Positions 17,680 through 31,025 of a stretch of DNA of 32,000 nucleotides are shown in pieces. Each line of letters begins with the position of its first letter. The first letter of the stretch is position 1. The DNA comes from an uncultured bacterium (GTDB lineage Bacteria > Auribacterota > JACPWU01). The notes under the pieces were generated by a model, which was not told the origin of the DNA, did no database searches, and saw nothing but the letters and a program-made list of their open reading frames with translations. Location: the NCBI GenBank assembly GCA_964640155.1, contig CAZXEQ010000003.1:325498-357497 (forward strand), given 5' to 3'. The position numbers were made by a program, and so were the translations under genes.

Positions 17680-17786
17680 TTTTGTGAAAACGCTGTCTTC
17701 TAAATGTAACCCGTGTATTTCCTACTCTCTGTCAGACGAATTTGTAGAGAAAATTAAATGTGCAAAGAGCAGGGAATAAAAAGTAT

Positions 17787-17876
17787 ATGAAGAAATATTT
17801 TTGCAAATTCATAACCATTCTTTTATCTCTTTTTCTCTTTTTTGATTTTACGACAAGAGAAGCACAACTTTTTGCT
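17787..17876 (+). other. Sec-type signal peptide of ORF-B
   Basis: MKKYFCKFITILLSLFLFFDFTTREAQLFA|SD has a basic n-region, a 12-residue hydrophobic core, and small residues at -1 and -3-like positions. There is no lipobox. Confidence 0.7.
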
Positions 17877-20800
17877 TCAGATTCTTCAGATCGATTGAAA
17901 GCAGGAGAGATTTTAAAAGAGTCGATTGACTTTAAAATTTCTGACTTTCAAAAGGCACCTCCAGTAGCTATTCAAGGTATTCTCACGTCTTTTCTAAAGT
18001 ATTTCTTTTTGCAATCTTATGAATATTCTATTTCCTTGCTCACGCACCGGCATATCTCGTTTCAAGGGATTCCTGTGCCTTCACTTTTTGATGAGATGAT
18101 GGAGACTTTATGGGAATTAATGAGAGAGCAGGAGTGGAAAGGTTTAGCTCGAAGATATATGAGAGAGCTCCGCTTGCGGTTAGTTGAGGAACATCAAGGG
18201 GATGTTAAAAAGGTGCAAAAGGAGCTTTTGAGAAATATAGATATTTGGGAGGGGAATAAATTAAAACTCTCTCAGAAGAAAAAGGGCTTTGCTGTTCTTT
18301 TTGAAAGTATAGATGATGAAGAGGAAGAGAATTCAGGGCTCTCACAAAAAGAAAAGGATTTCTTTGCGCTTCTAAGGCAAGAGGCCTTAGGACAAAAAGG
18401 GCCAGCAGCTCAGTTACTTCCAGAGCAACTAGAGAAAGTGATACATAGAAGTATGGCTCATGCGAAGACCGTTATGAAAATATTTGAAAGATTTCTACAA
18501 AATCAAGTTGCACAGGTGAGGCCCATTTATGAAAGAGCAAAAGTAACTCATGACGAAGAAATAAAAGCTGGAGAGTTAATATTTGAGATTTTAGATTTTA
18601 GGCCTGATTTTAAGAGAGATCCTCCCGATTTTTCAGGTCAGAAATTTGCCGAAGAACTTTTTGAGAAAAAGATTAAAAATTTTGGAGGCCGTAAATATTT
18701 ATTTGATCAGATTTTGTTTGAGCTGCGTAATTTAGATGATATGGATTCTAGGGCGTCATTAGTATTGATGCATGTTTTGGCCTGTTTTTTTAAAGAGGAT
18801 TATTTATCGAAACAAGGGGGAGTGACTTTATCCAGGGAACAATTTGAAAGACTTTGGAGGATTTATCGTTCAATCGACTATGATTGTGCGGGAGTCGCCA
18901 TGGGTTGCATTGCGCAAGTGATTTATGATCCAAGAATTAAAGTTGTAGGATTTACTCAAGATCAAATCCATTCACGGGCAAAAAAAGATTTTGAAATATT
19001 TTTAAAACGATTCATACACAATCCCAATCCGCGCACTTACAATCTATCTATTTATTGGTCACAGTATTTTTTGACTCAGGATTCTGAGTGGCTTGATGAA
19101 GTGATTGAAAAGATGAATTCTTTTGGTCGTCGGTCAGAAAAATTTAATCTAATTTTACGGGGATTATTGTCTAAGGTTTGTCAGGATGGAAAATTACGGG
19201 AAAATATTAATGAGTTTGCGAATAAATTTATTCAACCTTTAGATATTGCTGTATCCACCAATACTCCTGAAGATGCATGGAAAGCTATTTGGGGCACCAC
19301 CGATCAACCCCATCTTGAAAATGCGAAAAAATTTCTAGAAACAGTTACTTCTTTAAGAGAGCTTTATCCTTATCAATTGACTTCGTCTGATGCTACACCT
19401 CCACTTCAATTTGCTATTAAAAATGGTATTTATTTCCCAATTGGAGGAGGGCTTTATGTGACCCCGATAACTCAATCTTTTAGGCGACATACTGTTTTTA
19501 AATTAACCAATAGTGGACAGGTTACTTTTGCTTTTGAAGTATTGATTCCTGGTGAAAATACTGATCGACGTCTGATTGCAACTGAACAAAGGTGGAAGGT
19601 TTCATCGGAGTTGCTCGAAAGCTTTCCTCTGCATAATTATTGTCCTACTCCTCTCGCAATGATGGATTTGCCAAAGGGTTCATACTCTCTTTATGGCCAG
19701 GAAATTGAATTTAGTTCTAAAACTCCTTTGTCGGTCATGGGATTTCAATATGGAGAACAAGAAGATGGGAAGCGCCTAGACTTTATAACAAGACCCATAT
19801 TGGATGAAATTGCTAAAGAATCAGGTTGGGATTCAGATGCTTTGTCTTTTGAAGTTGCCAAACAAGTAACCGAACTTACCGCAGCAACTCATGCTCTGGG
19901 GTATGTGGGGCATAATGGTAAATCTTCTGATCATCATACTGGAAACTTTAGATTGATTTTGACAGGAGATAGAGCTAGGCCCATCAAAATAAAGTTGGTT
20001 GGGGATTTTGAGGCTTTCACCAAAGTTAGTTATGAAGATCAGATTAATAAAATGGGGAATGATGTTAATAATATTGTTCCCAGACTTAGCCTAATTTTGG
20101 ATATGGATGCAGAAAAACTTAAAAAGATGTTTGAAGAAGCTAGAGATTTACCCCATATACGTGAAGTTTCTGATAGAAAAAGAAAAGAATCGCTCAAAAA
20201 TGATTTTCGAGCTCTTCTAGTAATAAATCCAGATAACAAGGATCATTTAGAAGAATTATTAGCTTCTGTAAATGTCCGTGATTGTGAGCAATCTGTTCGA
20301 GAACAAAATAATGTAATAACTCTTGGTTTTTTCTTTGAGGATGAATTTTTAGATAAGCATGGAGGTCTTGTTTTATCTCAAGCCCAGTATGATCGGTTAT
20401 GGAAGATTTATAATGAAGCGGCAGTAGCTCCAGAATATGCGGCGATGATATTGGGATATATCTCTAAAGTTTTAAATGATGATAGGATCTCAATTGAAGG
20501 TCAGCCTGATAAGAAACAAGTTCGAAAAACATCTGCACAAAAGATAGTTTCTGCTTTAGAGATTACATCTCCTACAGATAATCCTAAACAGGCTTGGAAA
20601 GCTATTTTTGGAACAACTGATCAGCCTCATGTTCAAAACACTCAAAAGTTTATAGAAATGGCGACACTCTTAAGAAAAATTTTCCCTTATGAATTATCAA
20701 AAGAGGACCCTCGTTCTCCTTTAAAATATGCATTAGAAGAGGGGATTTATTTCCCTATAGGAGGTGGACTTTTTATGACACCTGTCACCGAATCTTTCAG

Positions 20801-23800
20801 ACGACATATGGTGTTTAAATTGGATGATGAGGGACAAGTGCTTTTCGCTTTTGAAGTGATGATTCCAGGTGAAGAAGACTATCGTCGAGATATCGGAGCA
20901 GAAAAAAGATGGAAAGTTGCTACCGATATCATTCAAAATTTTCCAGATGAAGAATATTGCATTGTTCCGATTGAAAAAGCTGTTTTGCCCTCTGCAACAT
21001 ATCTCCTATATGGGAAATCGGTGAGTATTAATGCTTCACAAAGTTTATGTATTATGGGTTTTGAATATGGAAAGCAAGAAGATGGAAAAGGTGTTTTTGA
21101 TGAGGACGGGAAACGTTTGGAGTTTGTCACACGCGCTATGGTTAATGAGATAGCTAAAGAAGCGGGCTGGGAACCAGAAGCTTTAGCTTTAGAAATTGCA
21201 AGACAAGTAGCTGAGCTTACGGCTGCAACACATGTTTTGGGATACGTTGGCCATATTAATGAAGGAGACGAAAGAGATGGATTCACAAGATGTGATCATC
21301 ATACCGGTAATTTTAGATTGATTGTAAGAAAGGGGAAGGACGTTCCTATTAAGGTAAAGCTGGTGGATGATTTCCGTTCATTTAGAAAGATTAGTTTTGA
21401 AGAAAAAGCAACGGCAGTTTTTGTAGATCATGCACACATTGTGATAGGAATTCCTGATATTTCAATGATTGGATTAAGTGAGATTTTATATCTTAGTGAA
21501 ATTGATTTATTGGGTATGTTTGAAGAAGCGGAAAATAAGCAAATCTTAAGTAAAATTAAAAATCTTGGAAAGGGAGAATTTTTTATTGATTATGGAAAGA
21601 GAAAGGATGATCTTAAAACAATTTTTAGAAATTATATAATGACTATGTCATATAAAGAGCACTTTCGTAATCAATTACTAGATGCCATTCTTCAAGAATC
21701 CACCGAAAGTTTTGCTATCGAGAATCTCCTACAAATTCTTTCCTTCTTTTTTGATGAAGAATTTTTACCTGAACCTCAAAAAGTAGTTTTAACCCCAGAG
21801 CAATATACAAAAATGTGGAAGATTTATGAAAAAGTCGAAAATGATCGAGACAATGCTTTTGTAATTTTAGATTGTCTTGGGAAGATTTTAAGCGATGAAA
21901 GAATTATAGTTTCAGGATGGGTGCAAAAATCTGAGGGTTATTCGCTGATGCAGGGAAAGTTTAAGCGATTTTTAGACCAGAAAAGGGTAGATCCAAAATT
22001 TCAAACACGAGGATTTGGGTTTGTGGGAGTAGCAACAACTCCTTGGGTTAATTTTTTTATTCGAGCCGGAGTAGATGCGGTAGAGGCTTTAGATGTGCCA
22101 TGGGATAACATGCTTTTGGACGGTCTTATTTATCCTTTATGCCAGGAACCAGTCATGAAAGCTATTCGCCAAAGACTTTTGAAGCAAATTGTGCCAGGGT
22201 CATATAAATTTGATGTGAAGCCTGTCATCCCCGGGATCGATGGATCCCCGACTGAAATCTTCGGGGACGGATCCATTCAACAAAATGGATTCCCGACAGA
22301 AACACTCGGGAATGACAGAGTGGTGGAAGCCCTACAAGCTATTTTTGGAACGCAGGAACATCCAAATATCGAAAATTCTCGAGAATTTTTTAGAGTGGCG
22401 ACACTACTGAGAAAAGTTTTTCCTTATGAGTTATCAAAAGATGATCCGCGGCCTCCGTTACAGTATGCCATTGAAGAAGGTATTTATTTTGAAATAGCCC
22501 CAGGGCTTTATATGACTCCCATTACAGAATCTTTCAGACGTCATATTATTTTTAAGATGACTGAACCCGGGAAAGTTGATTTTGCTTGTGAAGTATTGAT
22601 TCCAGGGGAATTAGAAGATCGAAGAGATTTTGCTATAAACATGCGGAAGAAAGTCAGTTCTAACTTAAAAGAAGTTTTTGGAGATGAATATTGTGTCGAA
22701 ACTATTTTTGATGTCCAATTCCCTTATGGAAAATATCAAATGTATGGAGATGAGATTATATTTAATGAGAAGACTCCTCTAAACTTGCTTGCATATGCTT
22801 ATGAAGATGGAAAGCGAATGGAATTTTTGACCCAAGATATGCTAATAAAACTTGCAGATAAGATGCAAATACGAATAGAAGACTTGGAGATGAAGATAGC
22901 AAGAAAAGCTGCATCTTGCGTAGCTGCCACACATGCTTTAGGTTATGTGGGACGTAAAGATAAATACGCAACTTCTGAAACTGGTGCTGAATTTGTGATT
23001 GGAACACGATTTGACCACCATTTAGGTAATTTTCGTTTAATCGTTAAAAAAGAAGATAAAAAAATAACTATCGACGTAGAATTAGTAGGAGATTTTGGTG
23101 CTTTTCGGGATTCCACACATTTGCAAAGAGCAGAGGCATTTAGAAAACAGGATATTCGAGCTGTTGTTGAAGGAGAGAATCGCTTTCCTGGATTAGTTAA
23201 ACTTTTAAATATTTCAAAAGAGAAGTTGTATGAGATCTTTGAACAGGAACAGAGAAGATTGAACACTGAAGTTCGGGATCTTTCAGAAATGGGAGGTTTA
23301 GCGGCAAGACCTTTGGGCCCGGGTTTCTCTGGCCTTCCAGATTCTCTTGAAGAATCACCTTATCGCCCTGTTATTGAAGAAAAGATGGATAAGAAACAGT
23401 TCAAATCAGCAAGTTTTTCAAATGGAAAGTTTTCAAGCTCTCAAGTAATGCATGAGAAGACAGGTACAGAAATAGGACAATCTGTTACGGGGGATAACTT
23501 AGACTTTTTAAATAATGTAGAGTTTTCTTCTGAAGACCGGAAAGCTTTAGAAGGTCTTACTATTATTTTTATTGACGGCTTAGATGAAGCAGTGAAGAAG
23601 AAAGCGATAGAACTCGGTCTTACTATTCTAGAAGATTGCAAAGGAGCACATTATGGAATTTCTCGACCACAAATATATTTAGATGCTAGTTTGCTAGATC
23701 CCACCAATAAAGAAGATTTAATACGCCAACTTCATCATGAGGTGCAGGAAAGAAAAGCAGTATTAGATATTCTCAATAGTCATTTTAAAAATTGGAAAGA

Positions 23801-26800
23801 GCATAGAAATAATGCTGATGTTCAGGATGTTATCGAAATTTTTGCTAATGCAAAACATAGAGATTTAATGAGAGAAGAGGGAAGAGTCCCTGAGGAAGAG
23901 CGACTAGACAAAAATATTTTGCAATTATCAATAATTGATTTAGAAAAGCAAGGCTATAAGCAGGTGGATTCTGTTGGCCCTCATCAATTCACAGTTTGGG
24001 AAAAGGATGGGGAAAGAGTGCTAGTAAAAGCAAGAGATTCGGATCTTTGGTTTTATCCTTTGATGGAGTTTGCTGCGGCTAGATTCGCAAGAAAATTAGG
24101 TGTTAAAAATGTAAACAAAGTTCACTTGGGAAGTCCAAAACATCCCAATCAGATTTTTAGCTCAATCATTGAAGTTTTTGAAGATTCTACTCCACTTTTA
24201 TCTAGCTCTTTTTTTGATCCAACTCCCCCCAGCGAATTAGTTCAAAAACATTCTGTTTTAGCTAATTTATGGCCTAACTCGATTGATCATAAGGCTTGGT
24301 TAGAAGTGATGGACGATCCACATAAGTTTATTGAGAGCGATATTTTTAGAGTTTTTTGGGGTTGGCTAGATCCAATGCCAGCAAAGAATGTCTTGGTTAG
24401 AAAAAATAGAGAAAAATGGCAAATGCGATTTATTGATTTTGCTCCTTCTCCTGTACAGTTCTTTTGTAGTGCACACGGGTATCTCGAAGCTCATGAAGAA
24501 TCCATCAGAAAACACGGTATGGGTTTAATCATGAAAATAGCAGAATTAACAAATGAAGAGATTTATCAACTTGTTGATGAGATTTTGCCTGAGACTTTGT
24601 CAGCAAATAAACAGATTCCTAGTGAAGGAATGTGGGCTTTGGAGAGTGTGCGTCAGGGGATGATTATTAAATTGATTCATAATCGAAATATTTTTCGAGA
24701 ATGGTTTCAGAAACAACCTGAGTATGAAGTACGACAGAGAGAATTACGCGAGCAAGAAACACGAAAGATTATTCAGGATGGCGGAGTTATTGAAGAAGGA
24801 ATTTCCGTTGTTTGCCCGGTTTATCGAGAGCTTGAAAATGGGAATTTCTTTCGATTGATTGAAAGTTTTACAAATCAAACAGCTGTGACGGGGAATTATG
24901 AGCTTCTTTTGCTTATCAATAATATGCCTGGCATCAAAGGGCCTGTTTTTGACGAAAATCAAAGGACTTTATTAATCGCAAATTTTTTGGAAAATCTAGA
25001 TCCGAATGCAGCCGAGCCGGAGTGCTTATCGCGCTATTCAGAAGAGCAAAAGGAGATAATTCGTAAAGCTAGAAAAATAGGTCTTAAAGTGAAGGTAAGA
25101 GACTTTTCTACTCAGGGTATTGAAAGAAATATTGGATTAATCAGGGACAAGGGAGTTCAAGAGGTCATTGCAGAATATGTTAAGGAAACGGGTGGTGATC
25201 GAGTTGTTGCAATGATGGATGCAGATACAATTGTTTCTTCTAACTATGTCGAGAATATTTTAGTTCATTTCTCAGATCCCAATCTAAATTATCTTCATCT
25301 TGATTTGGATTTTCAAGTCACTGGAGAGGGAGTGGACGAAGCTTTCTATCACACGCTTTACCATGAGAGATGGCCTGGAATATCGAGATCTTTTCTTTCC
25401 TGTTTGGGCAATCAACCAGGAGGAATTTCACCCACAATTGTTGCTCGAGCTTCAGCCCTCAAGAAAGTAGGTGGAGTTCCCCATAAAGCCTTTAATGAAG
25501 ATGGGGAATTAATTGGGAATTTGGTTCATTTAGGTGGGTATCGTTTAGCTCACGATGTGCAAGCTGTGACTGCGGATCGAAAAAGAGCAGATGGATATAA
25601 TTCTGCGAGTCGAGGTTCTGGTGGTGCACAAATGTCTCCTTCAAGTTTGTTGCGTTTGCTTGATTTTCTTCTTTTGAAAAGTCATAAAAATAGTCCTCCT
25701 GAGATTGAAGCATTTTTAAAAATGCCGGAAGATTATTATGAAGACAGGGTTGAGCGCCTCATTTCTCCTCGGGAATCTTTAGATTTAGAGACGATCAAAT
25801 TTTTGAGAAGATATTTGTCATCAGATGAATTGGACGAGCTTGAGAAAAGAATACAGATAGAAAGAGATAAGCACGAAGTATTACGTAAAAGGTTGTCCGC
25901 TGCTGTGCATGTGATTGTTCAAAATGTTCTTCAAAATAAGGATAAGCAAAATTGGTTTGAAGGAGTTTCTGATCCAGAAGTGTTAGCCTTTTTTAAAATG
26001 AATGCGCATTGGGTTTATAAGCGTATTCAAGATTCAAGGCATTTAATCGTTTCGCCAGAAGCAGTCTTGGGATATCTAGAAGAAAACTTTCCAGACTGGT
26101 TCAAGCCTTATGATGAAACAAGGCTTAAACGTCAGGTAACAAATATACATGTCATTATTAATTTTCTCAACGAAGCTCGCAATCGATCAAAGGCTTTCCC
26201 TACAACTAATTTGCTTTTGAAAGTTTTAGAAGGGAAAATTTCACTTTCTGAATTCTTAAAAACCTTGCCGCCTAAGCAAATTAAAACTTCTGATGAAGGG
26301 GCTACATTCAAATTTCCTGGAGCATTAGCCTTAGAAAAAAGAGACGATTGGGATATTGACTTCATGTATTTCTTGCGTAAGGATGCTCCTGTTGTTGATG
26401 CCCAGGACAAGCATTTACAAACTGCTATTCATTACATCAATGAACAAGTTCGGGGTCCCCGCAAAGAAAAGTCTGTTGATCAAAAGAAGATCGTTCTTCA
26501 TGCCATCGATGCAAAATATCAAGGCAAGCCTCTTTTAGGTATTCCTATTTTCCCTAATGCTTATTTACCTCAGGATTTACTACTTGTGTATGGGCAAGAG
26601 GATGAGGATGACGGGGCTTTACATATATATATTACAAAGGCATTCTGGGAAAAAGTTTCTTTAGAAGAGTCAGCAGGTTTTTATACAAAGGCATTGGCAG
26701 AAGCGATTGACCATGAATGGTTTGAGGAAAGAGAGGCAACACGTGCTGATCTAGGGCGTCAGACACAACATCGCCGTGCCTCAGAACGAGCTAGATTTTT

Positions 26801-29800
26801 TACTAGAGATGGACAAGTCAGTCCTCTCCATCAAATTTGCTTTCAAATGTTGACGACTTCTCCATTTTCGGAATGGAAAGAGTGGGCAAAGGCTCTTTTA
26901 AAAGAAAATAGAAAAGGAAATAAATCTAATGAAGTAAATGCTTATGAAAAAATTTTTCTAGAGAATTTAAAAAGAGTTCTTTTAGGTCAGGGCAAAGAAG
27001 GCCTTGCTCTTCTTGTTGAACATGAGGGGTTGCCAAAAGAAATTGTTTCTTTATTCAATAAACCTTTTCGAGAATGGAGATCTTTGGCAAAAGAAATTTT
27101 TTATAATTCTAGCGATAAAGTTGCTTTGTCCGCAGATGCTGATCGGCTGAAAACAAATTTTAGCAAAGAATTTTTAATAGATCTCATAATAGGGCAAGGA
27201 GAAGAAGGAATTGTTTTCTTGCATAAACTTATTCGTCCTGAAAAAGATGGAGGAATCAGTCAATCTAATATCGAATTAAGAAAGTATATTTGGGAAAGAA
27301 TAAAATCAGTTTCTTTTGAAGGGAAAGAAGTAAAGGTTATACAGAAAACGGCATCTCGCAAGCCTTATGACTTGCCAGAAGATCAAGTACTGTTTAAAGG
27401 GCAATTGCCTCAGTCAGGGGTATTAAAATTAAAAAGTTTTGAATTTGAATTTAAGAATTTTGTAGGCTCTGATTATGAATTGGAATTTAAAGATGGTTTT
27501 CCAATCAGAATATTTTTTTTAAATGAGAACGTTGCTTTTGAGTTTTTTCCTATTATTGATCGTCAAACAGGTCGTGTGATTACTGTACATCGAGGAAAAA
27601 TTTCTCAGAAAGAATTTGCTGGATATGACGATGTGATTGTTATGACAGATTTGGATTCGTCAGGTTATCTTTCTATTGGAGGGAGTCCACCTGTGTATGA
27701 TTCTTCAGGCGCTTTGATAGGTAAAAAACTGATAAGAGCAAGGTTTAACGAGCATTCTGATGCGCGTGTAAGAGTTGCTGTCAAGAGAGGTATTATCCAT
27801 CGTTGTACTTCAGCAGATTCAGAATTAGATGAAGAATTTACCTTAATTTGGTCTAAGTCTCGCCAATGTTATATTTCTTGGTTTTCTGAAAAAATGTATG
27901 AAGAGGACTTTAACTGCTTAAATGAAGATCACGAGATCCATCGTTGTCGATTGACGGACGGAGTTTTAAATATGGGAGGAGAAAAAAACAGGATTACTTT
28001 TCTAGGACATCCTGAATTAAAAAGAGCCAATGTTTTTGACATTCGTAATCCCACGGGGAAAAAAGCTTTTATTGTGGGTGCACATTTGATGGATGGAGAA
28101 AGAGTTGTGCAAACTAAAAAACTTTCTTTGGTTTATACCGTTGCATCCAAGCCTTCAAAAGAGATGTTTGAGAAAGAACAACTTATGGGAGTTTTTGAAC
28201 ATCAGAGACCTACAAATTTAGAATTGGGAGAAGGAGAGAAGCTTAAGGATTATATAATCTCAGAATTGCGAATAGAAGGTGCTATCTTAACTGTGAATAA
28301 AAGAAAGTTAGAATTAGGACAATATTTTCCCAACGCAGAGGTTGAGGTTAGAGTTATTGATGGAGAACCAAGATATTTAAAGTTTGTAAAGGATCGTGAC
28401 GAAAATTCTGTTTTAGACAAAGATGGCCAACCTCTTATTATAGATTTGCAGAAAAATATACGCCAACAAATGATGGAGAAAGCAGCTTTGTCTGTTGAAG
28501 GACCTCAATCAACTTCTGGTTCTCAAGGTTTTTCTGGTTTGACAGACTCTCTCGAAGAATCTCCTTATCGGCCTATTATTGAAGAGAAGATGAGCAAAGA
28601 ACAATTCAAATCAGCAAGTTTCTCAAATGGAAAGTTTTCTGAGACTCAAGTGACCCATGAAAAAACAAAAGAAAAAATAGGACAGTCTGTAACAGTTTCT
28701 GAATTAGACTTTTTAAATGAGGTAGAGCTTTCAACAGAAGATAGGGATGCTCTAAAAGGCCTCAAAATTATTTTTATTGATGGTCTAGATGAAGCAGTTA
28801 AAGCAAAAGCGATAGAGTTGGATCTTTCTCCTCCAGAAGATTGTAAAGGAGCGCATTATGGGATTTCGAGACCCCAAATATATTTAGATACGAATCTGCT
28901 GGATCCGGCCAATAAAGAAGGTTTAATGCGTCAGCTTTATCATGAGGTGCAGGAACGTAAAACAGTGATTAAAGCGCTCGATGAAAAATATCCGAATTGG
29001 AGAACACAAAGAAAACAGAGAGAATATGCAGATGAGATTAATCTTTTTATTGAGTCAACCGCGGCTGAAGCACATGACCGTTTAGAGGCAGAAGAAAAAG
29101 ATGCGATTGATTTTATTCCTGAGCTTTTGGAAGTGGTTGATTTTTATAGAAATCAGTTAATAGAAAATGCCGCCTGCATCAGTTTATTGCAGAGAGATCT
29201 TAAAGAAATTTTCAATAGAAGGGTTTTGCCTGCAAAAAATAAACATGAGTTATTTTCTCGAGTTCTGGCAATGTATGAAAAAGAAGGTTATGCGGTAATT
29301 CCTATTTTGCATTTAATTTGTTCTGAAGTTTTTTTGTCGAGAACATCTTTTAACGTTACTGTTCAAGAATATGAACGGCTTTTCCCGATTTTAGGTCGTG
29401 CGCTAACTTTTAGAGAAAAATATTTTGCTGCTCAAGTTCTTAATTGTATTCGGACAATCCTAGTGGATAAGCGAATTAGGATGGAAGCCGCTTTTGATAA
29501 GGGAAAAGCGTTAGAAAAATGGGAGCATGAAATGGGAGGTTTTTTTGATCCAGCTTTACGTTTTGAGATGCCAGATAAAATTGAAAATGAAGAGCAGGCT
29601 TGGAATGTGATTTTTGGAAATAAGCACAATGAAAAAACATTTTTAGAACTTGTAACAAGGTATAGAAAATTTTATTCGTTCAGGATTTCCAATCTAGATC
29701 ATCGTCCTCCTCTTCAGTATGCTCTAGAAGAAGGAATTTATTTTCGGATTGGACCCGACTTGTATGTGACCCCTATCACACAATCTTTTAGGCGACATAT

Positions 29801-30590
29801 TATTTTTAAGAAAGGACCTCATGGAGAGATTCTTTTTGCTTTTGAAGTGATGGTGCCCTGGGAAGAAAATGATAAATTAGATATACATGCTGATCAAAGA
29901 ATAGAAGTAGCGAATGTTTTGCAGGAGGGTTTTCCAGATAGAGAGTATTGCCCAAAGCCCCTTTTCTCAAAGGCTTTACCTAAAGGACAGTATGATCTTT
30001 ATGGTAGCACGACAGACATCAGGGATCAGGATGGGCCTCTTGCTGTTATGGCGTTCGATTATAAGGATGGGAAACGATTAAATAATGTTACCAAGGAAGA
30101 TTTTAGAACGTGGGCTGAAATAATGGGATGTTCATTAGAAGATTTAGCAGAAGATATTATTAAACAAACGGCAGAATTATTAGCAGCCCTTCATCGAATG
30201 GGATATGTAGGGCAAAGTAGACGGATACGTGGCTCGGATTGTCATATTGGTAATATTCGTATAGTTTTTGATGCTAAACTTCAAAAGATAAAATTAGAGT
30301 GGGTGGGAGATTTTGCGTCGTTTCAGAAAATGGATCCGAAAGATTCTGATTTATTAGCCTGTGAATCATGGGATGTTTCGAACCTCATTGGTTATGATAG
30401 TATTCATGCTTTCTTTCCCGGACTTGTTAGTATTTTAACGATGTCAAAAGACGTGAAGATTTCAACAGGTCTTTTAATAAATATTTTTTCTCGCGCTTAT
30501 GGTCATTTTAGAGGCTATGGAGATCTATCCTTTAAAATTAAACCTCATGACCGGCCTAAAGCAGAATTTCAATTTGAGGCTGCCGCTTAA
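17787..30590 (+). CDS. Giant secreted multidomain protein (4,267 aa from ATG 17787; 4,276 aa if GTG 17760). Contains five kinase-like domains, a GT2 glycosyltransferase, two canonical domain X copies and a beta-rich region.
   Basis: The 12.8-kb frame is uninterrupted and ends at TAA 30588-30590. ATG 17787 is preceded by AGGGA (17771-17775) and yields MKKYFCKFITILLSLFLFFDFTTREAQLFA|S, an n-h-c signal peptide. The longest ORF starts at GTG 17760. Four internally paralogous ~250-aa domains keep conserved motifs in frame. Confidence 0.95.
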   Translation: MKKYFCKFITILLSLFLFFDFTTREAQLFASDSSDRLKAGEILKESIDFKISDFQKAPPVAIQGILTSFLKYFFLQSYEYSISLLTHRHISFQGIPVPSLFDEMMETLWELMREQEWKGLARRYMRELRLRLVEEHQGDVKKVQKELLRNIDIWEGNKLKLSQKKKGFAVLFESIDDEEEENSGLSQKEKDFFALLRQEALGQKGPAAQLLPEQLEKVIHRSMAHAKTVMKIFERFLQNQVAQVRPIYERAKVTHDEEIKAGELIFEILDFRPDFKRDPPDFSGQKFAEELFEKKIKNFGGRKYLFDQILFELRNLDDMDSRASLVLMHVLACFFKEDYLSKQGGVTLSREQFERLWRIYRSIDYDCAGVAMGCIAQVIYDPRIKVVGFTQDQIHSRAKKDFEIFLKRFIHNPNPRTYNLSIYWSQYFLTQDSEWLDEVIEKMNSFGRRSEKFNLILRGLLSKVCQDGKLRENINEFANKFIQPLDIAVSTNTPEDAWKAIWGTTDQPHLENAKKFLETVTSLRELYPYQLTSSDATPPLQFAIKNGIYFPIGGGLYVTPITQSFRRHTVFKLTNSGQVTFAFEVLIPGENTDRRLIATEQRWKVSSELLESFPLHNYCPTPLAMMDLPKGSYSLYGQEIEFSSKTPLSVMGFQYGEQEDGKRLDFITRPILDEIAKESGWDSDALSFEVAKQVTELTAATHALGYVGHNGKSSDHHTGNFRLILTGDRARPIKIKLVGDFEAFTKVSYEDQINKMGNDVNNIVPRLSLILDMDAEKLKKMFEEARDLPHIREVSDRKRKESLKNDFRALLVINPDNKDHLEELLASVNVRDCEQSVREQNNVITLGFFFEDEFLDKHGGLVLSQAQYDRLWKIYNEAAVAPEYAAMILGYISKVLNDDRISIEGQPDKKQVRKTSAQKIVSALEITSPTDNPKQAWKAIFGTTDQPHVQNTQKFIEMATLLRKIFPYELSKEDPRSPLKYALEEGIYFPIGGGLFMTPVTESFRRHMVFKLDDEGQVLFAFEVMIPGEEDYRRDIGAEKRWKVATDIIQNFPDEEYCIVPIEKAVLPSATYLLYGKSVSINASQSLCIMGFEYGKQEDGKGVFDEDGKRLEFVTRAMVNEIAKEAGWEPEALALEIARQVAELTAATHVLGYVGHINEGDERDGFTRCDHHTGNFRLIVRKGKDVPIKVKLVDDFRSFRKISFEEKATAVFVDHAHIVIGIPDISMIGLSEILYLSEIDLLGMFEEAENKQILSKIKNLGKGEFFIDYGKRKDDLKTIFRNYIMTMSYKEHFRNQLLDAILQESTESFAIENLLQILSFFFDEEFLPEPQKVVLTPEQYTKMWKIYEKVENDRDNAFVILDCLGKILSDERIIVSGWVQKSEGYSLMQGKFKRFLDQKRVDPKFQTRGFGFVGVATTPWVNFFIRAGVDAVEALDVPWDNMLLDGLIYPLCQEPVMKAIRQRLLKQIVPGSYKFDVKPVIPGIDGSPTEIFGDGSIQQNGFPTETLGNDRVVEALQAIFGTQEHPNIENSREFFRVATLLRKVFPYELSKDDPRPPLQYAIEEGIYFEIAPGLYMTPITESFRRHIIFKMTEPGKVDFACEVLIPGELEDRRDFAINMRKKVSSNLKEVFGDEYCVETIFDVQFPYGKYQMYGDEIIFNEKTPLNLLAYAYEDGKRMEFLTQDMLIKLADKMQIRIEDLEMKIARKAASCVAATHALGYVGRKDKYATSETGAEFVIGTRFDHHLGNFRLIVKKEDKKITIDVELVGDFGAFRDSTHLQRAEAFRKQDIRAVVEGENRFPGLVKLLNISKEKLYEIFEQEQRRLNTEVRDLSEMGGLAARPLGPGFSGLPDSLEESPYRPVIEEKMDKKQFKSASFSNGKFSSSQVMHEKTGTEIGQSVTGDNLDFLNNVEFSSEDRKALEGLTIIFIDGLDEAVKKKAIELGLTILEDCKGAHYGISRPQIYLDASLLDPTNKEDLIRQLHHEVQERKAVLDILNSHFKNWKEHRNNADVQDVIEIFANAKHRDLMREEGRVPEEERLDKNILQLSIIDLEKQGYKQVDSVGPHQFTVWEKDGERVLVKARDSDLWFYPLMEFAAARFARKLGVKNVNKVHLGSPKHPNQIFSSIIEVFEDSTPLLSSSFFDPTPPSELVQKHSVLANLWPNSIDHKAWLEVMDDPHKFIESDIFRVFWGWLDPMPAKNVLVRKNREKWQMRFIDFAPSPVQFFCSAHGYLEAHEESIRKHGMGLIMKIAELTNEEIYQLVDEILPETLSANKQIPSEGMWALESVRQGMIIKLIHNRNIFREWFQKQPEYEVRQRELREQETRKIIQDGGVIEEGISVVCPVYRELENGNFFRLIESFTNQTAVTGNYELLLLINNMPGIKGPVFDENQRTLLIANFLENLDPNAAEPECLSRYSEEQKEIIRKARKIGLKVKVRDFSTQGIERNIGLIRDKGVQEVIAEYVKETGGDRVVAMMDADTIVSSNYVENILVHFSDPNLNYLHLDLDFQVTGEGVDEAFYHTLYHERWPGISRSFLSCLGNQPGGISPTIVARASALKKVGGVPHKAFNEDGELIGNLVHLGGYRLAHDVQAVTADRKRADGYNSASRGSGGAQMSPSSLLRLLDFLLLKSHKNSPPEIEAFLKMPEDYYEDRVERLISPRESLDLETIKFLRRYLSSDELDELEKRIQIERDKHEVLRKRLSAAVHVIVQNVLQNKDKQNWFEGVSDPEVLAFFKMNAHWVYKRIQDSRHLIVSPEAVLGYLEENFPDWFKPYDETRLKRQVTNIHVIINFLNEARNRSKAFPTTNLLLKVLEGKISLSEFLKTLPPKQIKTSDEGATFKFPGALALEKRDDWDIDFMYFLRKDAPVVDAQDKHLQTAIHYINEQVRGPRKEKSVDQKKIVLHAIDAKYQGKPLLGIPIFPNAYLPQDLLLVYGQEDEDDGALHIYITKAFWEKVSLEESAGFYTKALAEAIDHEWFEEREATRADLGRQTQHRRASERARFFTRDGQVSPLHQICFQMLTTSPFSEWKEWAKALLKENRKGNKSNEVNAYEKIFLENLKRVLLGQGKEGLALLVEHEGLPKEIVSLFNKPFREWRSLAKEIFYNSSDKVALSADADRLKTNFSKEFLIDLIIGQGEEGIVFLHKLIRPEKDGGISQSNIELRKYIWERIKSVSFEGKEVKVIQKTASRKPYDLPEDQVLFKGQLPQSGVLKLKSFEFEFKNFVGSDYELEFKDGFPIRIFFLNENVAFEFFPIIDRQTGRVITVHRGKISQKEFAGYDDVIVMTDLDSSGYLSIGGSPPVYDSSGALIGKKLIRARFNEHSDARVRVAVKRGIIHRCTSADSELDEEFTLIWSKSRQCYISWFSEKMYEEDFNCLNEDHEIHRCRLTDGVLNMGGEKNRITFLGHPELKRANVFDIRNPTGKKAFIVGAHLMDGERVVQTKKLSLVYTVASKPSKEMFEKEQLMGVFEHQRPTNLELGEGEKLKDYIISELRIEGAILTVNKRKLELGQYFPNAEVEVRVIDGEPRYLKFVKDRDENSVLDKDGQPLIIDLQKNIRQQMMEKAALSVEGPQSTSGSQGFSGLTDSLEESPYRPIIEEKMSKEQFKSASFSNGKFSETQVTHEKTKEKIGQSVTVSELDFLNEVELSTEDRDALKGLKIIFIDGLDEAVKAKAIELDLSPPEDCKGAHYGISRPQIYLDTNLLDPANKEGLMRQLYHEVQERKTVIKALDEKYPNWRTQRKQREYADEINLFIESTAAEAHDRLEAEEKDAIDFIPELLEVVDFYRNQLIENAACISLLQRDLKEIFNRRVLPAKNKHELFSRVLAMYEKEGYAVIPILHLICSEVFLSRTSFNVTVQEYERLFPILGRALTFREKYFAAQVLNCIRTILVDKRIRMEAAFDKGKALEKWEHEMGGFFDPALRFEMPDKIENEEQAWNVIFGNKHNEKTFLELVTRYRKFYSFRISNLDHRPPLQYALEEGIYFRIGPDLYVTPITQSFRRHIIFKKGPHGEILFAFEVMVPWEENDKLDIHADQRIEVANVLQEGFPDREYCPKPLFSKALPKGQYDLYGSTTDIRDQDGPLAVMAFDYKDGKRLNNVTKEDFRTWAEIMGCSLEDLAEDIIKQTAELLAALHRMGYVGQSRRIRGSDCHIGNIRIVFDAKLQKIKLEWVGDFASFQKMDPKDSDLLACESWDVSNLIGYDSIHAFFPGLVSILTMSKDVKISTGLLINIFSRAYGHFRGYGDLSFKIKPHDRPKAEFQFEAAA
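19275..20017 (+). other. Atypical protein-kinase-like domain K1 (ORF-B)
   Basis: G-loop-like YFPIGGGLYVTP and beta3-like HTVFKL. Catalytic-loop-like DHHTGNFRL (19929-19955; the D-to-N spacing matches the kinase D..N). DFG-like LVGDFEAF (19997-20017). A helical lead-in begins around 18780 (FFKEDYL...QFERLWRIY). Confidence 0.6.
20592..21382 (+). other. Atypical protein-kinase-like domain K2 (ORF-B)
   Basis: YFPIGGGLFMTP, HMVFKL, DHHTGNFRL (21294-21320) and LVDDFRSF (~21362-21382). The lead-in begins around 20326 (FFFEDEFL...QYDRLWKIY). Confidence 0.6.
22329..23105 (+). other. Atypical protein-kinase-like domain K3 (ORF-B)
   Basis: YFEIAPGLYMTP (G-loop degenerate), HIIFKM, DHHLGNFRL (23013-23039) and LVGDFGAF (23085-23105). 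The lead-in begins around 21741 (FFFDEEFL...QYTKMWKIY) and carries a ~130-aa insertion. Confidence 0.6.
23322..23808 (+). other. Domain X, copy 2 (ORF-B)
   Basis: GFSGLPDSLEESPYRPVIEEKM...IIFIDGLDE (23563-23589)...EDCKGAHYGISRPQIYLD...LHHEVQERK (23730-23756)...KNWKEHR. Confidence 0.7.
23931..24470 (+). other. Divergent kinase-like domain K5 (ORF-B)
   Basis: QFTVWEKDGERVLVKARD (beta1-3 with Lys), LMEFAAARFARKLG (alphaC-like Glu), IIEVFEDSTPL (hinge-like), LDPMPAKNVLV (D 24369-24371, N 24387-24389) and MRFIDFA (24429-24443). It is unrelated in sequence to K1-K4. Confidence 0.4.
24801..25600 (+). other. GT-A fold family-2-like glycosyltransferase domain (ORF-B)
   Basis: ISVVCPVYRELENGNFFRLIESFTNQT..YELLLLINN matches the GT2 N-terminal signature (vSViiP.YNe....l.Sl..Qt..yEiivvdd). 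The DxD motif is MMDADT (DAD 25218-25226). NEDGELIGNL..GGY resembles the GT2 ED..L motif. Confidence 0.7.
26480..26760 (+). other. Possible degenerate domain X-like segment (ORF-B)
   Basis: VLHAIDAKYQG...GALHIYITKAFWEKV...LAEAIDHEWFEEREA (26709-26735) keeps the order (h-h-ID ... H-IY ... HE..ERE) but lacks the DCxG cysteine. Confidence 0.25.
26859..27262 (+). repeat. Tandem ~67-aa duplication (ORF-B)
   Basis: SPFSEWKEWAKALL...FLENLKRVLLGQGKEGLALLVEHEG versus KPFREWRSLAKEIF...FSKEFLIDLIIGQGEEGIVFLHKLI. The second copy starts at 27060. Confidence 0.55.
27300..28480 (+). other. Beta-rich region with weak internal repeats, unknown function (ORF-B)
   Basis: The composition shifts from the helical E/K/L-rich scaffold to short alternating hydrophobic/polar stretches. 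Examples are LKSFEFEFKNFVGSDYELEFKDGFPIRIFF; GYLSIGGSPPVYDSSGALIGKKLIRARF; GVLNMGGEKNRITFLGHPELKRANVFDI; GAILTVNKRKLELGQYFPNAEVEVRVIDG. Confidence 0.35.
28527..29012 (+). other. Domain X, copy 3 (ORF-B)
   Basis: GFSGLTDSLEESPYRPIIEEKM...IIFIDGLDE (28767-28793)...EDCKGAHYGISRPQIYLD...LYHEVQERK (28934-28960)...PNWRTQR. About three quarters of residues are identical to copy 2 by eye. Confidence 0.7.
29598..30323 (+). other. Atypical protein-kinase-like domain K4 (ORF-B, C-terminal)
   Basis: YFRIGPDLYVTP, HIIFKK, DCHIGNIRI (30237-30263) and WVGDFASF (30303-30323). The lead-in begins around 29319 (SEVFL...VQEYERLF). Confidence 0.55.
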
Positions 30591-30638: not shown

Positions 30639-30845
30639 ATGCGAATGAACAGAAAATCAATTAAGTATTATGATTGGGAAGAAACCAGATCAGAACAGGT
30701 TTCTCCAATGACCTCAGAAAAATGGTTTTTAACTCCCCGCAATGTTTCTCAGATTGATCTTTCTGCATTGAAGAAAGAAGTTAAATTAAAAGCCCCAAAA
30801 CAGGCTTCTTCAACCGCCAGGGGAAGAAGTCGGGTATCTGCTTGA
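30639..30845 (+). CDS. Small hypothetical protein (68 aa), doubtful
   Basis: ATG..TGA ORF in the intergenic space after ORF-B. It is basic and Ser/Lys-rich with no recognisable motif. No Shine-Dalgarno is visible. The only support is an extended -10-like TGCTACAAT 10 nt upstream of the ATG. Confidence 0.3.
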   Translation: MRMNRKSIKYYDWEETRSEQVSPMTSEKWFLTPRNVSQIDLSALKKEVKLKAPKQASSTARGRSRVSA

Positions 30846-30989: not shown

Positions 30990-31025
30990 TTTGGGTCGAT
31001 AAATTTAAGGAATTCCTACAGGCGC

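What the first reader, a model, noticed from the sequence alone, without database searches (positions are those of the whole stretch)
23931..25600. Kinase-like domain fused to a GT2-type (DxD) glycosyltransferase as an internal cassette of the secreted protein
ISVVCPVYRE...LIESFTNQT...YELLLLINN ... MMDADT ... NEDGELIGNL is a good motif-level GT-A/GT2 signature. Directly upstream, 23931-24470 carries a second, unrelated kinase-like motif series (LVKA Lys; LDPMPAKNVLV; FIDFA). GT2 enzymes normally work at the producer's cytoplasmic face with nucleotide sugars. Placing one inside a Sec-signal-bearing 4,267-aa protein suggests it acts where nucleotide sugars exist, that is, inside another cell. 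Bacterial glycosylating toxins and effectors (GT-A, DxD) work this way. That is inference. The cassette is bracketed by the two near-identical X domains.
Basis: partly seen in the sequence, partly recalled or inferred. Interest (0 to 1): 0.65.

Follow-up and report, generated by a model that had tools for sequence, protein, structure and literature searches.

The report
Kinase-like plus glycosyltransferase modules, giant protein
A 4,267-residue, signal-peptide-bearing protein of an uncultured Auribacterota-like bacterium really does contain a kinase-fold domain next to a family-2-type glycosyltransferase; both are reusable modules from undescribed families that are often exported, which hints at, but does not prove, action outside the producer cell.

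Summary
Window 23931-24776 encodes a protein-kinase-like fold. AlphaFold2 gave pLDDT 81, and the closest solved structures are HipA-type kinases (CtkA, HipT) and PI4KIIα. The Lys, Glu, Asp, Asn and Asp catalytic positions are all present. Window 24792-25616 encodes a GT-A, GT2-like, DxD glycosyltransferase (pLDDT 89; all top structural matches are GT2 enzymes). It keeps every family-invariant residue, and dN/dS against an ortholog is 0.09.

Three corrections:
- The GT unit runs on to 26222, adding a helical extension.
- The flanking X domains are 67% identical, not near-identical.
- Three more modules lie between GT and X2.

The two modules are independent. Elsewhere each occurs alone or in other giant proteins. 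The fusion appears only here and in an Auribacterota MAG ortholog (83% identical).

The "acts inside another cell" reading remains inference. It gains circumstantial support: about one third of 121 GT relatives, and most related giant proteins, have Sec-type N-termini. Against it, no toxin-type GT similarity and no translocation or secretion module was found.

The closest known kind is the signal-peptide-bearing mosaic giant proteins of Omnitrophota. Verdict: real, moderately interesting, a new variant of a known kind.

The parts
17787..30590 (+). Gene B: 4,267-aa mosaic protein (an alternative GTG start at 17760 gives 4,276 aa). Architecture: SP - N-terminal region - R1 - R2 - R3 - X1 - KL - GT - D3 - D4 - D5 - X2 - R4.
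   Evidence: ORF list and translation. The identical protein is called on Logan contig SRR8893623_166047. Internal repeat map; domain map. A colinear ortholog exists in Auribacterota MAG contig L004.
17787..17876 (+). Putative Sec signal peptide or signal anchor: MKKYFCKFITILLSLFLFFDFTTREAQLFA.
   Evidence: It has a basic n-region, a 12-residue hydrophobic core and an LFA|S site. It is the only strong hydrophobic segment in the protein. An AGGGA-type RBS-like purine run lies upstream of the ATG. No SignalP-type tool was available.
23316..23915 (+). X1 module (aa 1853-2052), unknown fold. Invariant motifs: FxDGLDEAV, C..G.HYG.SR.QIYLD, HE..ER.
   Evidence: It is 67% identical to X2, 74% to the ortholog's X1 and 40% to an X copy in gene A.
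23931..24776 (+). KL module (aa 2058-2339): protein-kinase-like fold of an undescribed small family. Putative catalytic set: K2090, E2103, D2204, N2210, D2226.
   Evidence: AF2 pLDDT 81.1, pTM 0.81. Foldseek top matches are CtkA 3akk (E=2.4e-5, TM about 0.47), HipT, PI4KIIα and many ePK/APH-type kinases. There are 6 homologs. Motif coordinates. No Pfam or PDB sequence hit.
24792..25616 (+). GT-A fold, GT2-like catalytic domain (aa 2345-2619). Motifs: PVYRE, NN (in place of DD), ERNIG..R, DAD (25218-25226), ED (25497-25502), DRKR.
   Evidence: AF2 pLDDT 89.1, pTM 0.87. Foldseek: all of the top 50 are GT2-type GT-A enzymes, led by HAS 7sp7 at E=1.5e-8, then TarP, TarS, K4CP, Chs1 and RmlT. Pfam GT2 hits. 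Conservation over 119 family domains. dN/dS 0.09.
25617..26222 (+). Disordered linker (aa 2620-2670) plus helical C-terminal extension (aa 2671-2821). These belong to the GT module and travel with it.
   Evidence: Colinear with the full-length standalone homolog P0001. The GT profile covers aa 2325-2828. pLDDT is below 55 for the linker and above 90 for the helices. dN/dS 0.12.
26223..28511 (+). Modules D3 (26223-27014), D4 and D5 (27015-28511). They lie between the GT module and X2 and are absent from the ortholog.
   Evidence: The D3 family has invariant E..DHE..E / H..A..R / S..H residues.
28512..29126 (+). X2 module (aa 3585-3789).
24281..24758 (+). A 478-nt stretch that is 100% identical in nucleotides to the Auribacterota MAG ortholog. 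It covers the C-lobe of KL and the linker helix.
   Evidence: dS = 0 here, against 0.5-1.0 in the flanks.

Best explanation
Window 23931-26222 encodes two genuine and probably active enzyme modules. They are placed side by side in a mosaic, Sec-signal-bearing giant protein of an Auribacterota-like bacterium.

Module 1 (aa 2058-2339) has a bilobal protein-kinase-like fold and belongs to a tiny, undescribed family. It is closest in shape to HipA-type Ser/Thr kinases (CtkA, HipT) and PI4KIIα. It presumably binds ATP through K2090/E2103 and transfers phosphate through D2204/N2210/D2226.

Module 2 (aa 2323-2821) is a GT2-like GT-A glycosyltransferase with a helical C-terminal extension. It presumably binds a nucleotide sugar and a divalent metal through D2487-A-D2489, and uses the Asp of the ED motif (D2581) as catalytic base, as in inverting GT2 enzymes.

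The two are not an obligate pair. Each is a portable module that elsewhere occurs as a small protein or inside other giant proteins. The host protein is a string of such modules (R x4, X x2, KL, GT, D3-D5).

This protein, most related giants and about a third of the free-standing GT relatives begin with Sec-type signal peptides. The most likely reading is therefore that the modules are exported and act outside the producer's cytoplasm. Their ATP and NDP-sugar requirement makes the interior or surface of another cell (prey, host or competitor) the most plausible site.

Shown: the folds, the motifs, modularity, purifying selection and the recurrence of signal-like N-termini. Inferred: catalysis, export, the site of action and the substrates.
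For: Folds
- GT model: pLDDT 89.1. The Foldseek top 50 are all GT2-type GT-A enzymes.
- KL model: pLDDT 81.1. Top matches are CtkA, HipT and PI4KIIα, followed by many kinases.
- Predicted secondary structure places K2090 on β3, E2103 on αC, D2204..N2210 before β7 and D2226 after β8.

Family membership
- 213 relatives were found.
- P0001 passes the PF00535 cut-off. 41 of 63 relatives hit PF00535.
- Profile hits in the PDB are all weak, and the glycosyltransferases among them are all GT2; a few similarly weak non-GT hits also appear.

Active-site integrity
- DAD is conserved in 117 and 119 of 119 domains, ED in 108 and 109, N2400 in 119, R2607 in 118. All are present in the window copy.

Selection
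- dN/dS against the ortholog: 0.09 (GT), 0.12 (GT extension), 0.13 (KL). For comparison, R and X give 0.21-0.22.

Modularity
- KL and GT co-occur only in B and in L004. Elsewhere they appear separately in 400-6,720-aa proteins.
- The ortholog lacks D3-D5 exactly at module borders.

Export
- The N-terminus of B is signal-like.
- 44 of 121 GT-family representatives have signal-like N-termini by a heuristic (about 2 false positives by eye). In several the signal directly abuts the first GT strand.
- SP-like N-termini also occur in the GT giants P0034, P0072, P0076, P0055, P0047, P0054 and P0008; in the KL proteins P0052 and P0017; and in the D3 giants P0030, P0038, P0091 and P0132.
- SP-bearing members sit on bacterial contigs, including one that encodes BamD/YfiO, which marks a diderm.

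Precedent
- SP-bearing giant proteins that carry cytoplasm-type enzyme domains (GT, kinase, methyltransferase) are described in Omnitrophota and read as extracellular or predation-related (10.1101/2023.11.21.568195; 10.64898/2026.06.07.730766).
Against: - No signal-peptide predictor could be run. The N-terminal segment could be an uncleaved anchor.
- About two thirds of the GT relatives lack any signal, so the family's ancestral setting may be cytoplasmic.
- Pfam and NCBIfam detect no translocation, pore-forming, RTX, CPD or secretion-system-related domain in B or its neighbours.
- Structural neighbours of the GT are cell-envelope polysaccharide and teichoic-acid enzymes, not toxins.
- Two of five standalone homologs sit next to lytic transglycosylase genes, which hints at the producer's own cell wall.
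- The KL catalytic Asp-to-Asn spacing is +6 rather than the canonical +5. In some family members the Asp or Asn is replaced by E or Q.
- Auribacterota MAGs have been interpreted as free-living fermenters, not predators or symbionts (PMC9324843).
Confidence: 0.45

Rival explanations
1. The protein is exported but stays with the producer, anchored in the periplasm or on the cell surface. The GT and kinase-like modules then modify or bind the producer's own envelope polymers (peptidoglycan, polysaccharide, S-layer) rather than entering another cell.
For: - The closest structures are envelope-polymer GT2 enzymes: TarP, TarS, RmlT, hyaluronan, chitin and chondroitin synthases.
- Lytic transglycosylase genes lie next to 2 of the 5 standalone homologs examined.
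- B has a single N-terminal hydrophobic segment that could act as an anchor.
- The Omnitrophota literature favours surface or cell-wall-directed roles.
Against: From established biochemistry, neither ATP nor nucleotide sugars are known to be available in the periplasm or outside the cell, yet the full DxD/ED set and the kinase catalytic set are conserved under strong purifying selection. The two SLT-adjacent homologs themselves lack signal peptides.
Confidence: 0.25
2. The protein is cytoplasmic, or membrane-tethered with its bulk in the cytoplasm. It would be a giant multi-enzyme scaffold in which GT and kinase use ordinary cytoplasmic NDP-sugars and ATP, perhaps together with the neighbouring giant protein A in making a modified metabolite or polymer. 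The hydrophobic N-terminus would be a tether or a mis-called start.
For: - GT2 enzymes normally act at the cytoplasmic face (general knowledge).
- About 64% of the GT relatives have no signal.
- Gene A carries an AprA-type methyltransferase (E=6e-81), an HD domain and TPRs, which are typical cytoplasmic or biosynthetic domains.
- In Omnitrophota, 46% of long proteins are predicted to be TM-anchored with cytoplasmic bulk.
Against: - With a basic n-region before the hydrophobic core and an acidic or neutral region after it, the positive-inside rule predicts that the bulk is exported.
- Signal-like N-termini recur independently in many unrelated carriers of the same modules, including small proteins where the signal directly precedes the GT fold.
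- No NRPS/PKS or carrier-protein domains were detected.
Confidence: 0.2
3. One or both modules are catalytically dead. They would be a pseudokinase and a lectin-like GT-A fold, serving as binding or scaffold domains of a large adhesin-like surface protein.
For: - The KL family has a non-canonical catalytic loop (Asp-to-Asn +6) and substitutions in some members. One homolog, P0017, has lost the C-lobe.
- The window's GT scores below Pfam thresholds.
- The family replaces the usual GT2 'DD' with 'NN'.
Against: - The window's KL retains all five canonical positions.
- GT DAD, ED and R2607 are conserved in 91-100% of 119 domains, and NN is itself a family-wide invariant rather than a degenerate position.
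- dN/dS of 0.09-0.13 is the lowest in the protein.
Confidence: 0.1

Closest known systems
CAZy family GT2-type GT-A glycosyltransferases (Pfam PF00535 / PF13632; for example TarP, TarS, hyaluronan synthase, K4CP chondroitin polymerase)
   Same: - GT-A fold with β1 'PxYxE', 'xRNxG...(hydrophobic)xDxD' after β4, and an 'ED' motif in the acceptor half.
- Best structural matches at E about 1e-8 to 1e-7.
- Weak to moderate Pfam and NCBIfam GT2 hits across the family.
   Different: - It is a distinct, uncurated clade. The window copy is below every curated threshold.
- It has 'NN' where GT2 usually has 'DD'.
- A helical insertion lies between β2 and β3.
- A roughly 150-aa helical C-terminal extension is unique to the clade.
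- About one third of members carry Sec-type signals, and some are embedded in giant proteins.
HipA-type Ser/Thr kinases (H. pylori CtkA, PDB 3akj-3akl; HipT) and type II PI4-kinases
   Same: - Bilobal kinase fold.
- These are the best Foldseek matches (E=2.4e-5, TM 0.45-0.48).
- CtkA is itself a kinase that acts on host cells after secretion (PMC5536186).
   Different: - No sequence-level relation: no Pfam hit and no PDB hmmsearch hit.
- Identity is 9-13%.
- The catalytic loop reads HGD(x5)N / LDPMPAKN, with one extra residue.
- The family has only about 7 known members, mostly inside giant proteins.
Giant mosaic proteins of Omnitrophota (West-Roberts et al. 2023 preprint, 10.1101/2023.11.21.568195; 2026 preprint, 10.64898/2026.06.07.730766)
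   Same: - PVC-related candidate phylum.
- Very long ORFs in tandem, with N-terminal signal peptides.
- Strings of divergent 'cytoplasm-type' enzyme domains (glycosyl transferases, kinases, methyltransferases, HD, TPR) that are mostly invisible to Pfam and were found by structure prediction.
   Different: - The host is Auribacterota-like, not Omnitrophota.
- At 4.3 and at least 6.3 kaa, the proteins are 10 to 30 times shorter.
- There are no multiple TM helices and no SecA_DEAD, C39 or dockerin domains.
- The GT is GT2-like rather than the GT1 or starch-synthase types reported there.
Glycosylating toxins and effectors with GT-A/DxD domains in large multi-domain proteins (large clostridial toxins GT44, lymphostatin/LifA, Legionella Lgt, NleB/SseK); comparison from general knowledge
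   Same: - A DxD GT-A domain embedded in a very large, non-cytoplasmic multidomain protein.
- The logic that the donor substrate exists only inside a target cell.
   Different: - No toxin GT appears among the top 50 structural matches.
- No translocation domain, autoprotease (CPD) or receptor-binding repeat was detected.
- The entry signal is Sec-type rather than T3SS/T4SS or holin-type.
- No pathogen or host context is known.

Membership tests
GT2-type GT-A glycosyltransferases | GT-A (single Rossmann-like α/β/α) fold | tested here: met
   AF2 pLDDT 89.1, pTM 0.87. Foldseek against the PDB gives 182 matches at E<=1e-3, and all of the top 50 are GT2-type GT-A enzymes.
GT2-type GT-A glycosyltransferases | DxD metal / NDP-sugar-binding motif directly after the central β-strand | tested here: met
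   VVAMM-DAD-T. Strand E160-163 of the model is followed by D2487-A-D2489. The two Asp are conserved in 117/119 and 119/119 family domains.
GT2-type GT-A glycosyltransferases | Acceptor-side catalytic base motif (ED / TED-like) | tested here: met
   AFN-ED-GELIGNL at aa 2580-2581. Conserved in 108 and 109 of 119 domains. It aligns with the DxD-to-TED region of BcsA in a profile search.
GT2-type GT-A glycosyltransferases | Significant match to curated GT2 sequence models (Pfam PF00535 and related, NCBIfam) | tested here: inconclusive
   The window copy scores PF13632 17.7 bits and PF00535 17.7 bits, below the cut-offs of 27 and 23.3. Homolog P0001 (38% identity) scores 31.7, above 23.3. 41 of 63 relatives hit PF00535 at E<=0.01. 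NCBIfam gives only weak subfamily hits. CAZy assignment itself was not available.
GT2-type GT-A glycosyltransferases | Glycosyl transfer from a nucleotide sugar | not testable with these tools
   Needs a biochemical assay.
Protein-kinase-like superfamily (HipA/CtkA-like branch) | Bilobal kinase fold | tested here: met
   AF2 pLDDT 81.1, pTM 0.81 from a 7-sequence alignment. Foldseek matches: CtkA E=2.4e-5, HipT, PI4KIIα (TM 0.48), plus dozens of ePK/APH-type kinases.
Protein-kinase-like superfamily (HipA/CtkA-like branch) | Catalytic residue set: β3 Lys, αC Glu, catalytic-loop Asp...Asn, metal-binding Asp (DFG-equivalent) | tested here: met
   K2090, E2103, D2204, N2210 and D2226 fall on the expected predicted secondary-structure elements. 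Caveats: the Asp-to-Asn spacing is +6, not +5, and the placement comes from sequence and secondary structure, not from 3-D superposition.
Protein-kinase-like superfamily (HipA/CtkA-like branch) | Sequence-profile membership in a described kinase family (Pkinase, HipA_C, APH, PI3_PI4_kinase and others) | tested here: not met
   No Pfam hit for the window domain or for any of its 6 homologs. No PDB hmmsearch hit. It is therefore filed as kinase-like fold, not as a HipA-family member.
Glycosylating toxins/effectors (GT44 LCT-type, GT88 Lgt-type, NleB/SseK-type) | Sequence or structural similarity of the GT domain to toxin GT domains | tested here: not met
   None appear among the top 50 Foldseek PDB matches, and there are no Pfam toxin-GT hits.
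Glycosylating toxins/effectors (GT44 LCT-type, GT88 Lgt-type, NleB/SseK-type) | Delivery apparatus: a translocation or autoprocessing domain, or a dedicated secretion signal or system | tested here: not met
   Only a Sec-type N-terminus was found. There is no other hydrophobic region, and no CPD, RTX or T3/T4/T6-related domain in B or its neighbours. The undetected-fold modules (X, D3-D5, R) leave this open.
Glycosylating toxins/effectors (GT44 LCT-type, GT88 Lgt-type, NleB/SseK-type) | Glycosylation of a target-cell protein, with toxicity | not testable with these tools
   Needs expression and toxicity assays and substrate identification.
Omnitrophota-type giant mosaic proteins | N-terminal signal peptide plus a string of divergent enzyme domains in a very long ORF | tested here: met
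   compared with the descriptions read.
Omnitrophota-type giant mosaic proteins | Length of at least 10,000-30,000 aa, numerous TM helices, SecA_DEAD / C39 / dockerin domains, Omnitrophota host | tested here: not met
   The proteins are 4,267 aa and at least 6,278 aa. There is one hydrophobic segment and none of those Pfam domains. The nearest genome is an Auribacterota MAG.

The most novel reading that the evidence does not exclude
The GT module belongs to a previously unrecognised clade of GT2-like glycosyltransferases that bacteria export through Sec, either as free proteins of about 560 aa or as cassettes in giant mosaic proteins. Together with a new HipA/CtkA-like kinase family, these would be inter-cellular effectors that glycosylate and phosphorylate targets inside prey, host or competitor cells. 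That would make them a GT2-based counterpart of the GT44, GT88 and NleB glycosylating toxins. It would also imply a contact-dependent or predatory lifestyle for some Auribacterota, which are currently read as free-living fermenters.
Probability: 0.25. Interest if true: 0.8.

Novelty: new variant of a known kind. Interest (0 to 1): 0.5.

Why it matters
If the modules are exported and active, this would be a GT2-type enzyme family working outside the producer's cytoplasm. No bacterial GT2 precedent for that is known to me. It would also give a tractable, roughly 500-aa entry point (the free-standing homologs) into what the dark-matter giant proteins of PVC-related candidate phyla do.

The finding also extends the 'signal peptide plus string of cytoplasm-type enzymes' architecture from Omnitrophota to an Auribacterota-like lineage. 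It defines five undescribed domain families (KL, the GT clade, R, X, D3), each with clear invariant residues that can be mutated and tested.

If instead the protein is cytoplasmic or envelope-bound, the finding reduces to a divergent GT2 and an atypical kinase in a large multidomain protein. That is useful annotation but not surprising.

Tried and rejected
Searches that led nowhere
- Word-indexed homolog searches returned only one or two hits each for the cassette, the R repeats and the KL profile. The exhaustive HMMER search was needed to find the families.
- Single-sequence PDB searches gave nothing. The designed-armadillo 'hits' to aa 2243-2300 come from summing one weak match over identical repeats and were rejected as spurious.
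- Profile searches of KL, R and D3 against PDB sequences found nothing.
- NCBIfam on the whole protein found nothing meaningful.
- No tRNA or Rfam element is present in the window.
- No promoter or terminator consensus lies between genes A and B.
- Two metagenome scans, one with the N-terminal 300 aa and one with the KL-GT ortholog alignment, found no further orthologs. Conservation of the signal peptide in orthologs therefore could not be tested. L004 is truncated upstream of aa 1011.
- Cluster look-ups gave no source names for 10 GT relatives.
- Literature searches for the sample and MAG accessions returned nothing.

Ideas tested and rejected
- KL related to the R repeats: hhalign probability 0.1%.
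- X related to D3, despite a similar-looking HE..E motif: probability 0.1%.
- A conserved operon partner for the standalone GTs: the contexts are heterogeneous. Only a lytic transglycosylase neighbour recurs, in 2 of 5 cases.
- The SP-bearing GT relatives being eukaryotic Golgi-type enzymes: rejected because their contigs carry bacterial genes (BamD, two-component systems, a colicin-type toxin).


Full report
SETTING

The window holds two very long + strand ORFs in tandem.
- Gene A runs off the 5' end and stops at 17679. It is at least 5,875 aa here and at least 6,278 aa on the matching Logan contig.
- Gene B spans 17787-30590 (4,267 aa from the ATG; 4,276 aa from an upstream GTG).
- A third gene starts near 31020 and runs off the 3' end.
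- GC content is 35-39%.
- Exactly the same protein B is called on Logan contig SRR8893623_166047.
- The only related genome found among 185,579 species representatives is a MAG labelled Candidatus Auribacterota (JAYRIK010000223.1, locus L004). Its ORF is colinear with B aa 1011-2854 (73% identity) and aa 3586-4276 (66%). The source organism is therefore most likely an Auribacterota-like bacterium. This is an inference from one ortholog.

ARCHITECTURE OF B

Fragment-against-self BLAST and local profile searches give this layout (aa numbers count from the GTG at 17760):
- Signal-like N-terminus: aa 10-39.
- N-terminal region: aa 40-310.
- Three R repeats: aa 311-1855.
- X1: aa 1853-2052.
- KL: aa 2058-2339.
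- GT: aa 2323-2821.
- D3: aa 2822-3085.
- D4 and D5: aa 3086-3584.
- X2: aa 3585-3789.
- R4: aa 3889-4275.

Pfam and NCBIfam see almost nothing in the whole protein.

CHECK OF THE OBSERVATION

Glycosyltransferase. The window copy gives only sub-threshold hits to three related GT2 models: PF13632 (E=0.0033), PF00535 (E=0.0037) and PF13506 (E=0.028). The family evidence is strong.
- An exhaustive HMMER search of 1.84 billion representatives with aa 2040-3239 found 213 relatives. Most match aa 2345-2620.
- The homolog P0001 (38% identical) passes Pfam's PF00535 cut-off (31.7 bits against 23.3). 41 of 63 relatives hit PF00535.
- Among the weak profile hits to PDB sequences, the glycosyltransferases are all GT2 (6p61, TarS, RmlT, BcsA); a few equally weak non-GT hits also appear.
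- An AlphaFold2 model built on 63 sequences is confident (pLDDT 89.1, pTM 0.87).
- Its top 50 Foldseek matches in the PDB are all GT2-type GT-A enzymes: Chlorella virus hyaluronan synthase (E=1.5e-8), TarP, TarS, K4CP, AvpGT, chitin synthases, RmlT and WrtF.
- The predicted strand order puts DAD (aa 2487-2489) straight after the central strand VVAMM. 'PVYRE' lies on β1 and 'ERNIG..R' precedes the DxD, as in GT2 generally.
- Across 119 family domains, DAD is conserved in 117 and 119, ED in 108 and 109, N2400 in 119 and R2607 in 118. The window copy has all of them.
- One peculiarity of the clade is 'NN' (117 and 100 of 119) where GT2 enzymes usually have 'DD'.

Kinase-like domain. There is no Pfam hit and no PDB sequence hit for this domain or for its six homologs (P0017, P0052, P0082, P0110, P0124, P0145).
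- A 7-sequence AlphaFold2 model is still confident (pLDDT 81.1, pTM 0.81).
- Its best PDB matches are the H. pylori kinase CtkA (E=2.4e-5, TM about 0.47), HipT/HipA-like kinases and PI4KIIα (TM 0.48). Many eukaryotic-type and APH/FN3K-type kinases follow.
  - K2090 on β3 (RVLVKAR).
  - E2103 on αC.
  - D2204...N2210 just before β7 (NVLVRK).
  - D2226 just after β8 (WQMRFI-DF).
- The Asp-to-Asn spacing is +6 instead of +5. In homologs the loop reads HGD(x5)N/Q.

CORRECTIONS TO THE OBSERVATION

1. The GT evolutionary unit does not end at 25600. It continues through a disordered linker (aa 2620-2670, pLDDT about 50) into a helical extension that ends at aa 2821 (nt 26222). The whole unit is colinear with full-length standalone homologs of 530-620 aa.
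2. X1 and X2 are 67% identical. X1 is closer to the ortholog's X1 (74%), so the duplication is old.
3. In this window three further modules (D3-D5) separate GT from X2. In the ortholog they are missing and KL-GT abuts X2.

MODULARITY

KL and GT occur together only in B and its ortholog. Elsewhere:
- GT occurs as a free protein (about 108 representatives under 750 aa), or inside other large proteins of 988-3,049 aa.
- KL occurs alone (400-422 aa) or inside giants of 2,815-6,720 aa.
- D3 is repeated two or three times in yet other giants.

The cassette is therefore a juxtaposition of two portable modules, not a conserved two-enzyme unit.

SELECTION

Both modules are under stronger purifying selection than the rest of the protein. 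dN/dS against L004 is 0.09 for GT-A, 0.12 for the GT extension and 0.13 for the N-terminal part of KL. It is 0.21-0.22 for R and X.

IS IT EXPORTED, AND WHERE DOES IT ACT?

Support for export:
- B starts with MKKYFCKFITILLSLFLFFDFTTREAQLFA|SD. It has a basic n-region, a 12-residue hydrophobic core and a small residue at -1. A purine-rich RBS-like run lies upstream of the ATG, and there is no other strongly hydrophobic segment. No signal-peptide predictor was available.
- Independent support comes from the relatives. By a simple hydrophobicity heuristic, 44 of 121 GT-family representatives have signal-like N-termini (about two are false positives by eye).
- Several are classical in form, for example MKIAPFALIALLVATSSAHA and MLRKAALFLSLCLLLTQQATA. 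In several the signal runs straight into the first GT strand.
- The GT-bearing large proteins P0034, P0072, P0076, P0055, P0047, P0054 and P0008 also start this way. So do the KL-bearing P0052 and P0017 and the D3-bearing P0030, P0038, P0091 and P0132.
- The contigs of the SP-bearing members are bacterial. One encodes BamD, which marks a diderm.

Export is thus a recurrent property of the carriers of these modules. That is unusual for GT2 enzymes, which normally act at the cytoplasmic face (general knowledge).

What argues against the effector reading, or leaves it open:
- Nothing shows delivery into another cell.
- No toxin-type GT similarity was found.
- No translocation, autoprocessing or secretion-system domain was detected.
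- About two thirds of the GT relatives lack a signal.
- Two of five standalone homologs sit beside lytic transglycosylase genes, a hint at the producer's own wall.
- Auribacterota MAGs have been read as free-living fermenters (PMC9324843).

COMPARISON WITH WHAT IS KNOWN

- The closest described kind is the giant mosaic proteins of Omnitrophota. They are signal-peptide or TM-bearing ORFs that string together highly divergent 'cytoplasm-type' enzyme domains, including glycosyl transferases, kinases, methyltransferases and HD domains. They are interpreted as extracellular or predation-related (10.1101/2023.11.21.568195; 10.64898/2026.06.07.730766).
- B and A fit that description in kind. A carries an AprA-type methyltransferase at E=6e-81, plus HD_4 and TPR domains. 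They differ in host phylum, in size (4-6 kaa rather than 10-147 kaa) and in lacking multiple TM helices and SecA_DEAD, C39 or dockerin domains.
- At domain level, GT is a new clade within the GT2-like GT-A enzymes. KL is a new small family with a HipA/CtkA-like kinase fold.
- CtkA is itself a kinase that acts on host cells after secretion (PMC5536186). That is only an analogy.
- Membership of the glycosylating-toxin families was tested by structure and not met.

VERDICT

- The fold assignments are solid.
- Catalytic competence is likely. Export is plausible and gains new circumstantial support. Action inside another cell remains an attractive inference, at roughly 25-35% probability.
- Novelty: a new variant of a known kind. 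The architecture is already described for a neighbouring phylum. What is new is the set of undescribed module families and a GT2-like clade that is unusually often exported.
- Interest: 0.5.

Noticed in passing
window 24281-24758 (= L004 3388-3865): A 478-nt stretch is exactly identical in nucleotides to the Auribacterota MAG ortholog. It covers the kinase-like C-lobe and the linker helix. The surrounding alignment is about 75-81% identical, with dS 0.5-1.0. This looks like recent recombination between diverged lineages, or less likely an assembly artefact.
   Followed up: partly
window 26223-28511, compared with L004 around 5417-5440: The ortholog lacks B aa 2855-3585 (modules D3-D5). The indel falls at module borders next to X2, which suggests module gain or loss by recombination at or near the X domains.
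   Followed up: partly
window 1-17679 (gene A): The upstream giant protein is at least 6,278 aa on the Logan contig. It carries an AprA MT2-like methyltransferase (E=6e-81), AprA winged-helix and N-terminal domains, an HD_4 domain and TPRs. It shares one X module with B (aa 5180-5389, about 40% identity). The remaining roughly 5,000 aa have no Pfam match.
   Followed up: partly
window 19140-23324 and 29457-30587 (R1-R4): Four copies of a roughly 370-aa module are 39-47% identical. Invariant motifs are FRRH..FK, D-H-x-G-N-x-R and V-x-D-F, a kinase-like motif series. Only one homolog was found in 5.8 billion proteins: P0002, 302 aa, next to a rhodanese gene in GCA_029782515.1. The fold was not modelled.
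   Followed up: partly
window 26223-27014 (D3): This module has invariant E..DHE..E, H..A..R and S..H residues, which may form a metal site. It is repeated two or three times in other signal-peptide-bearing giant proteins (P0004, P0030, P0038, P0096). It has no PDB or Pfam match and is unrelated to X by hhalign.
   Followed up: partly
window 23316-23915, 28512-29126, 15583-16221 (X modules): X modules keep invariant F.DGLDEAV, C..G.HYG.SR.QIYLD and HE..ER motifs across five copies in two genomes. Their position at module junctions raises the untested idea of a processing or recombination role.
   Followed up: no
P0017 (422 aa, JGI): The closest KL homolog (about 50% identity) has a signal-like N-terminus and appears to have lost the whole kinase C-lobe. 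Its sequence jumps from 'RFIE' to the 'KNRNLFREWFQKE' helix.
   Followed up: no
L009 10728-12013: A signal-peptide-bearing GT homolog (P0102) lies 3 kb from a colicin-type 'Cytotoxic' (PF09000) gene followed by a small DUF7683 gene. This resembles a toxin-immunity pair. It is a single case.
   Followed up: no
window ~31020-32000: A third gene runs off the 3' end. It also begins with a signal-like segment (…SRILISLLSFTVGFDSSLLSQVTA) and has no significant Pfam match. A 68-aa ORF at 30639-30845 lies between it and gene B.
   Followed up: partly
L005 9661-10731; L008 9751-10356: Two standalone GT homologs without signal peptides (P0024, P0010) are each immediately adjacent to an SLT-type lytic transglycosylase gene.
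   Followed up: no
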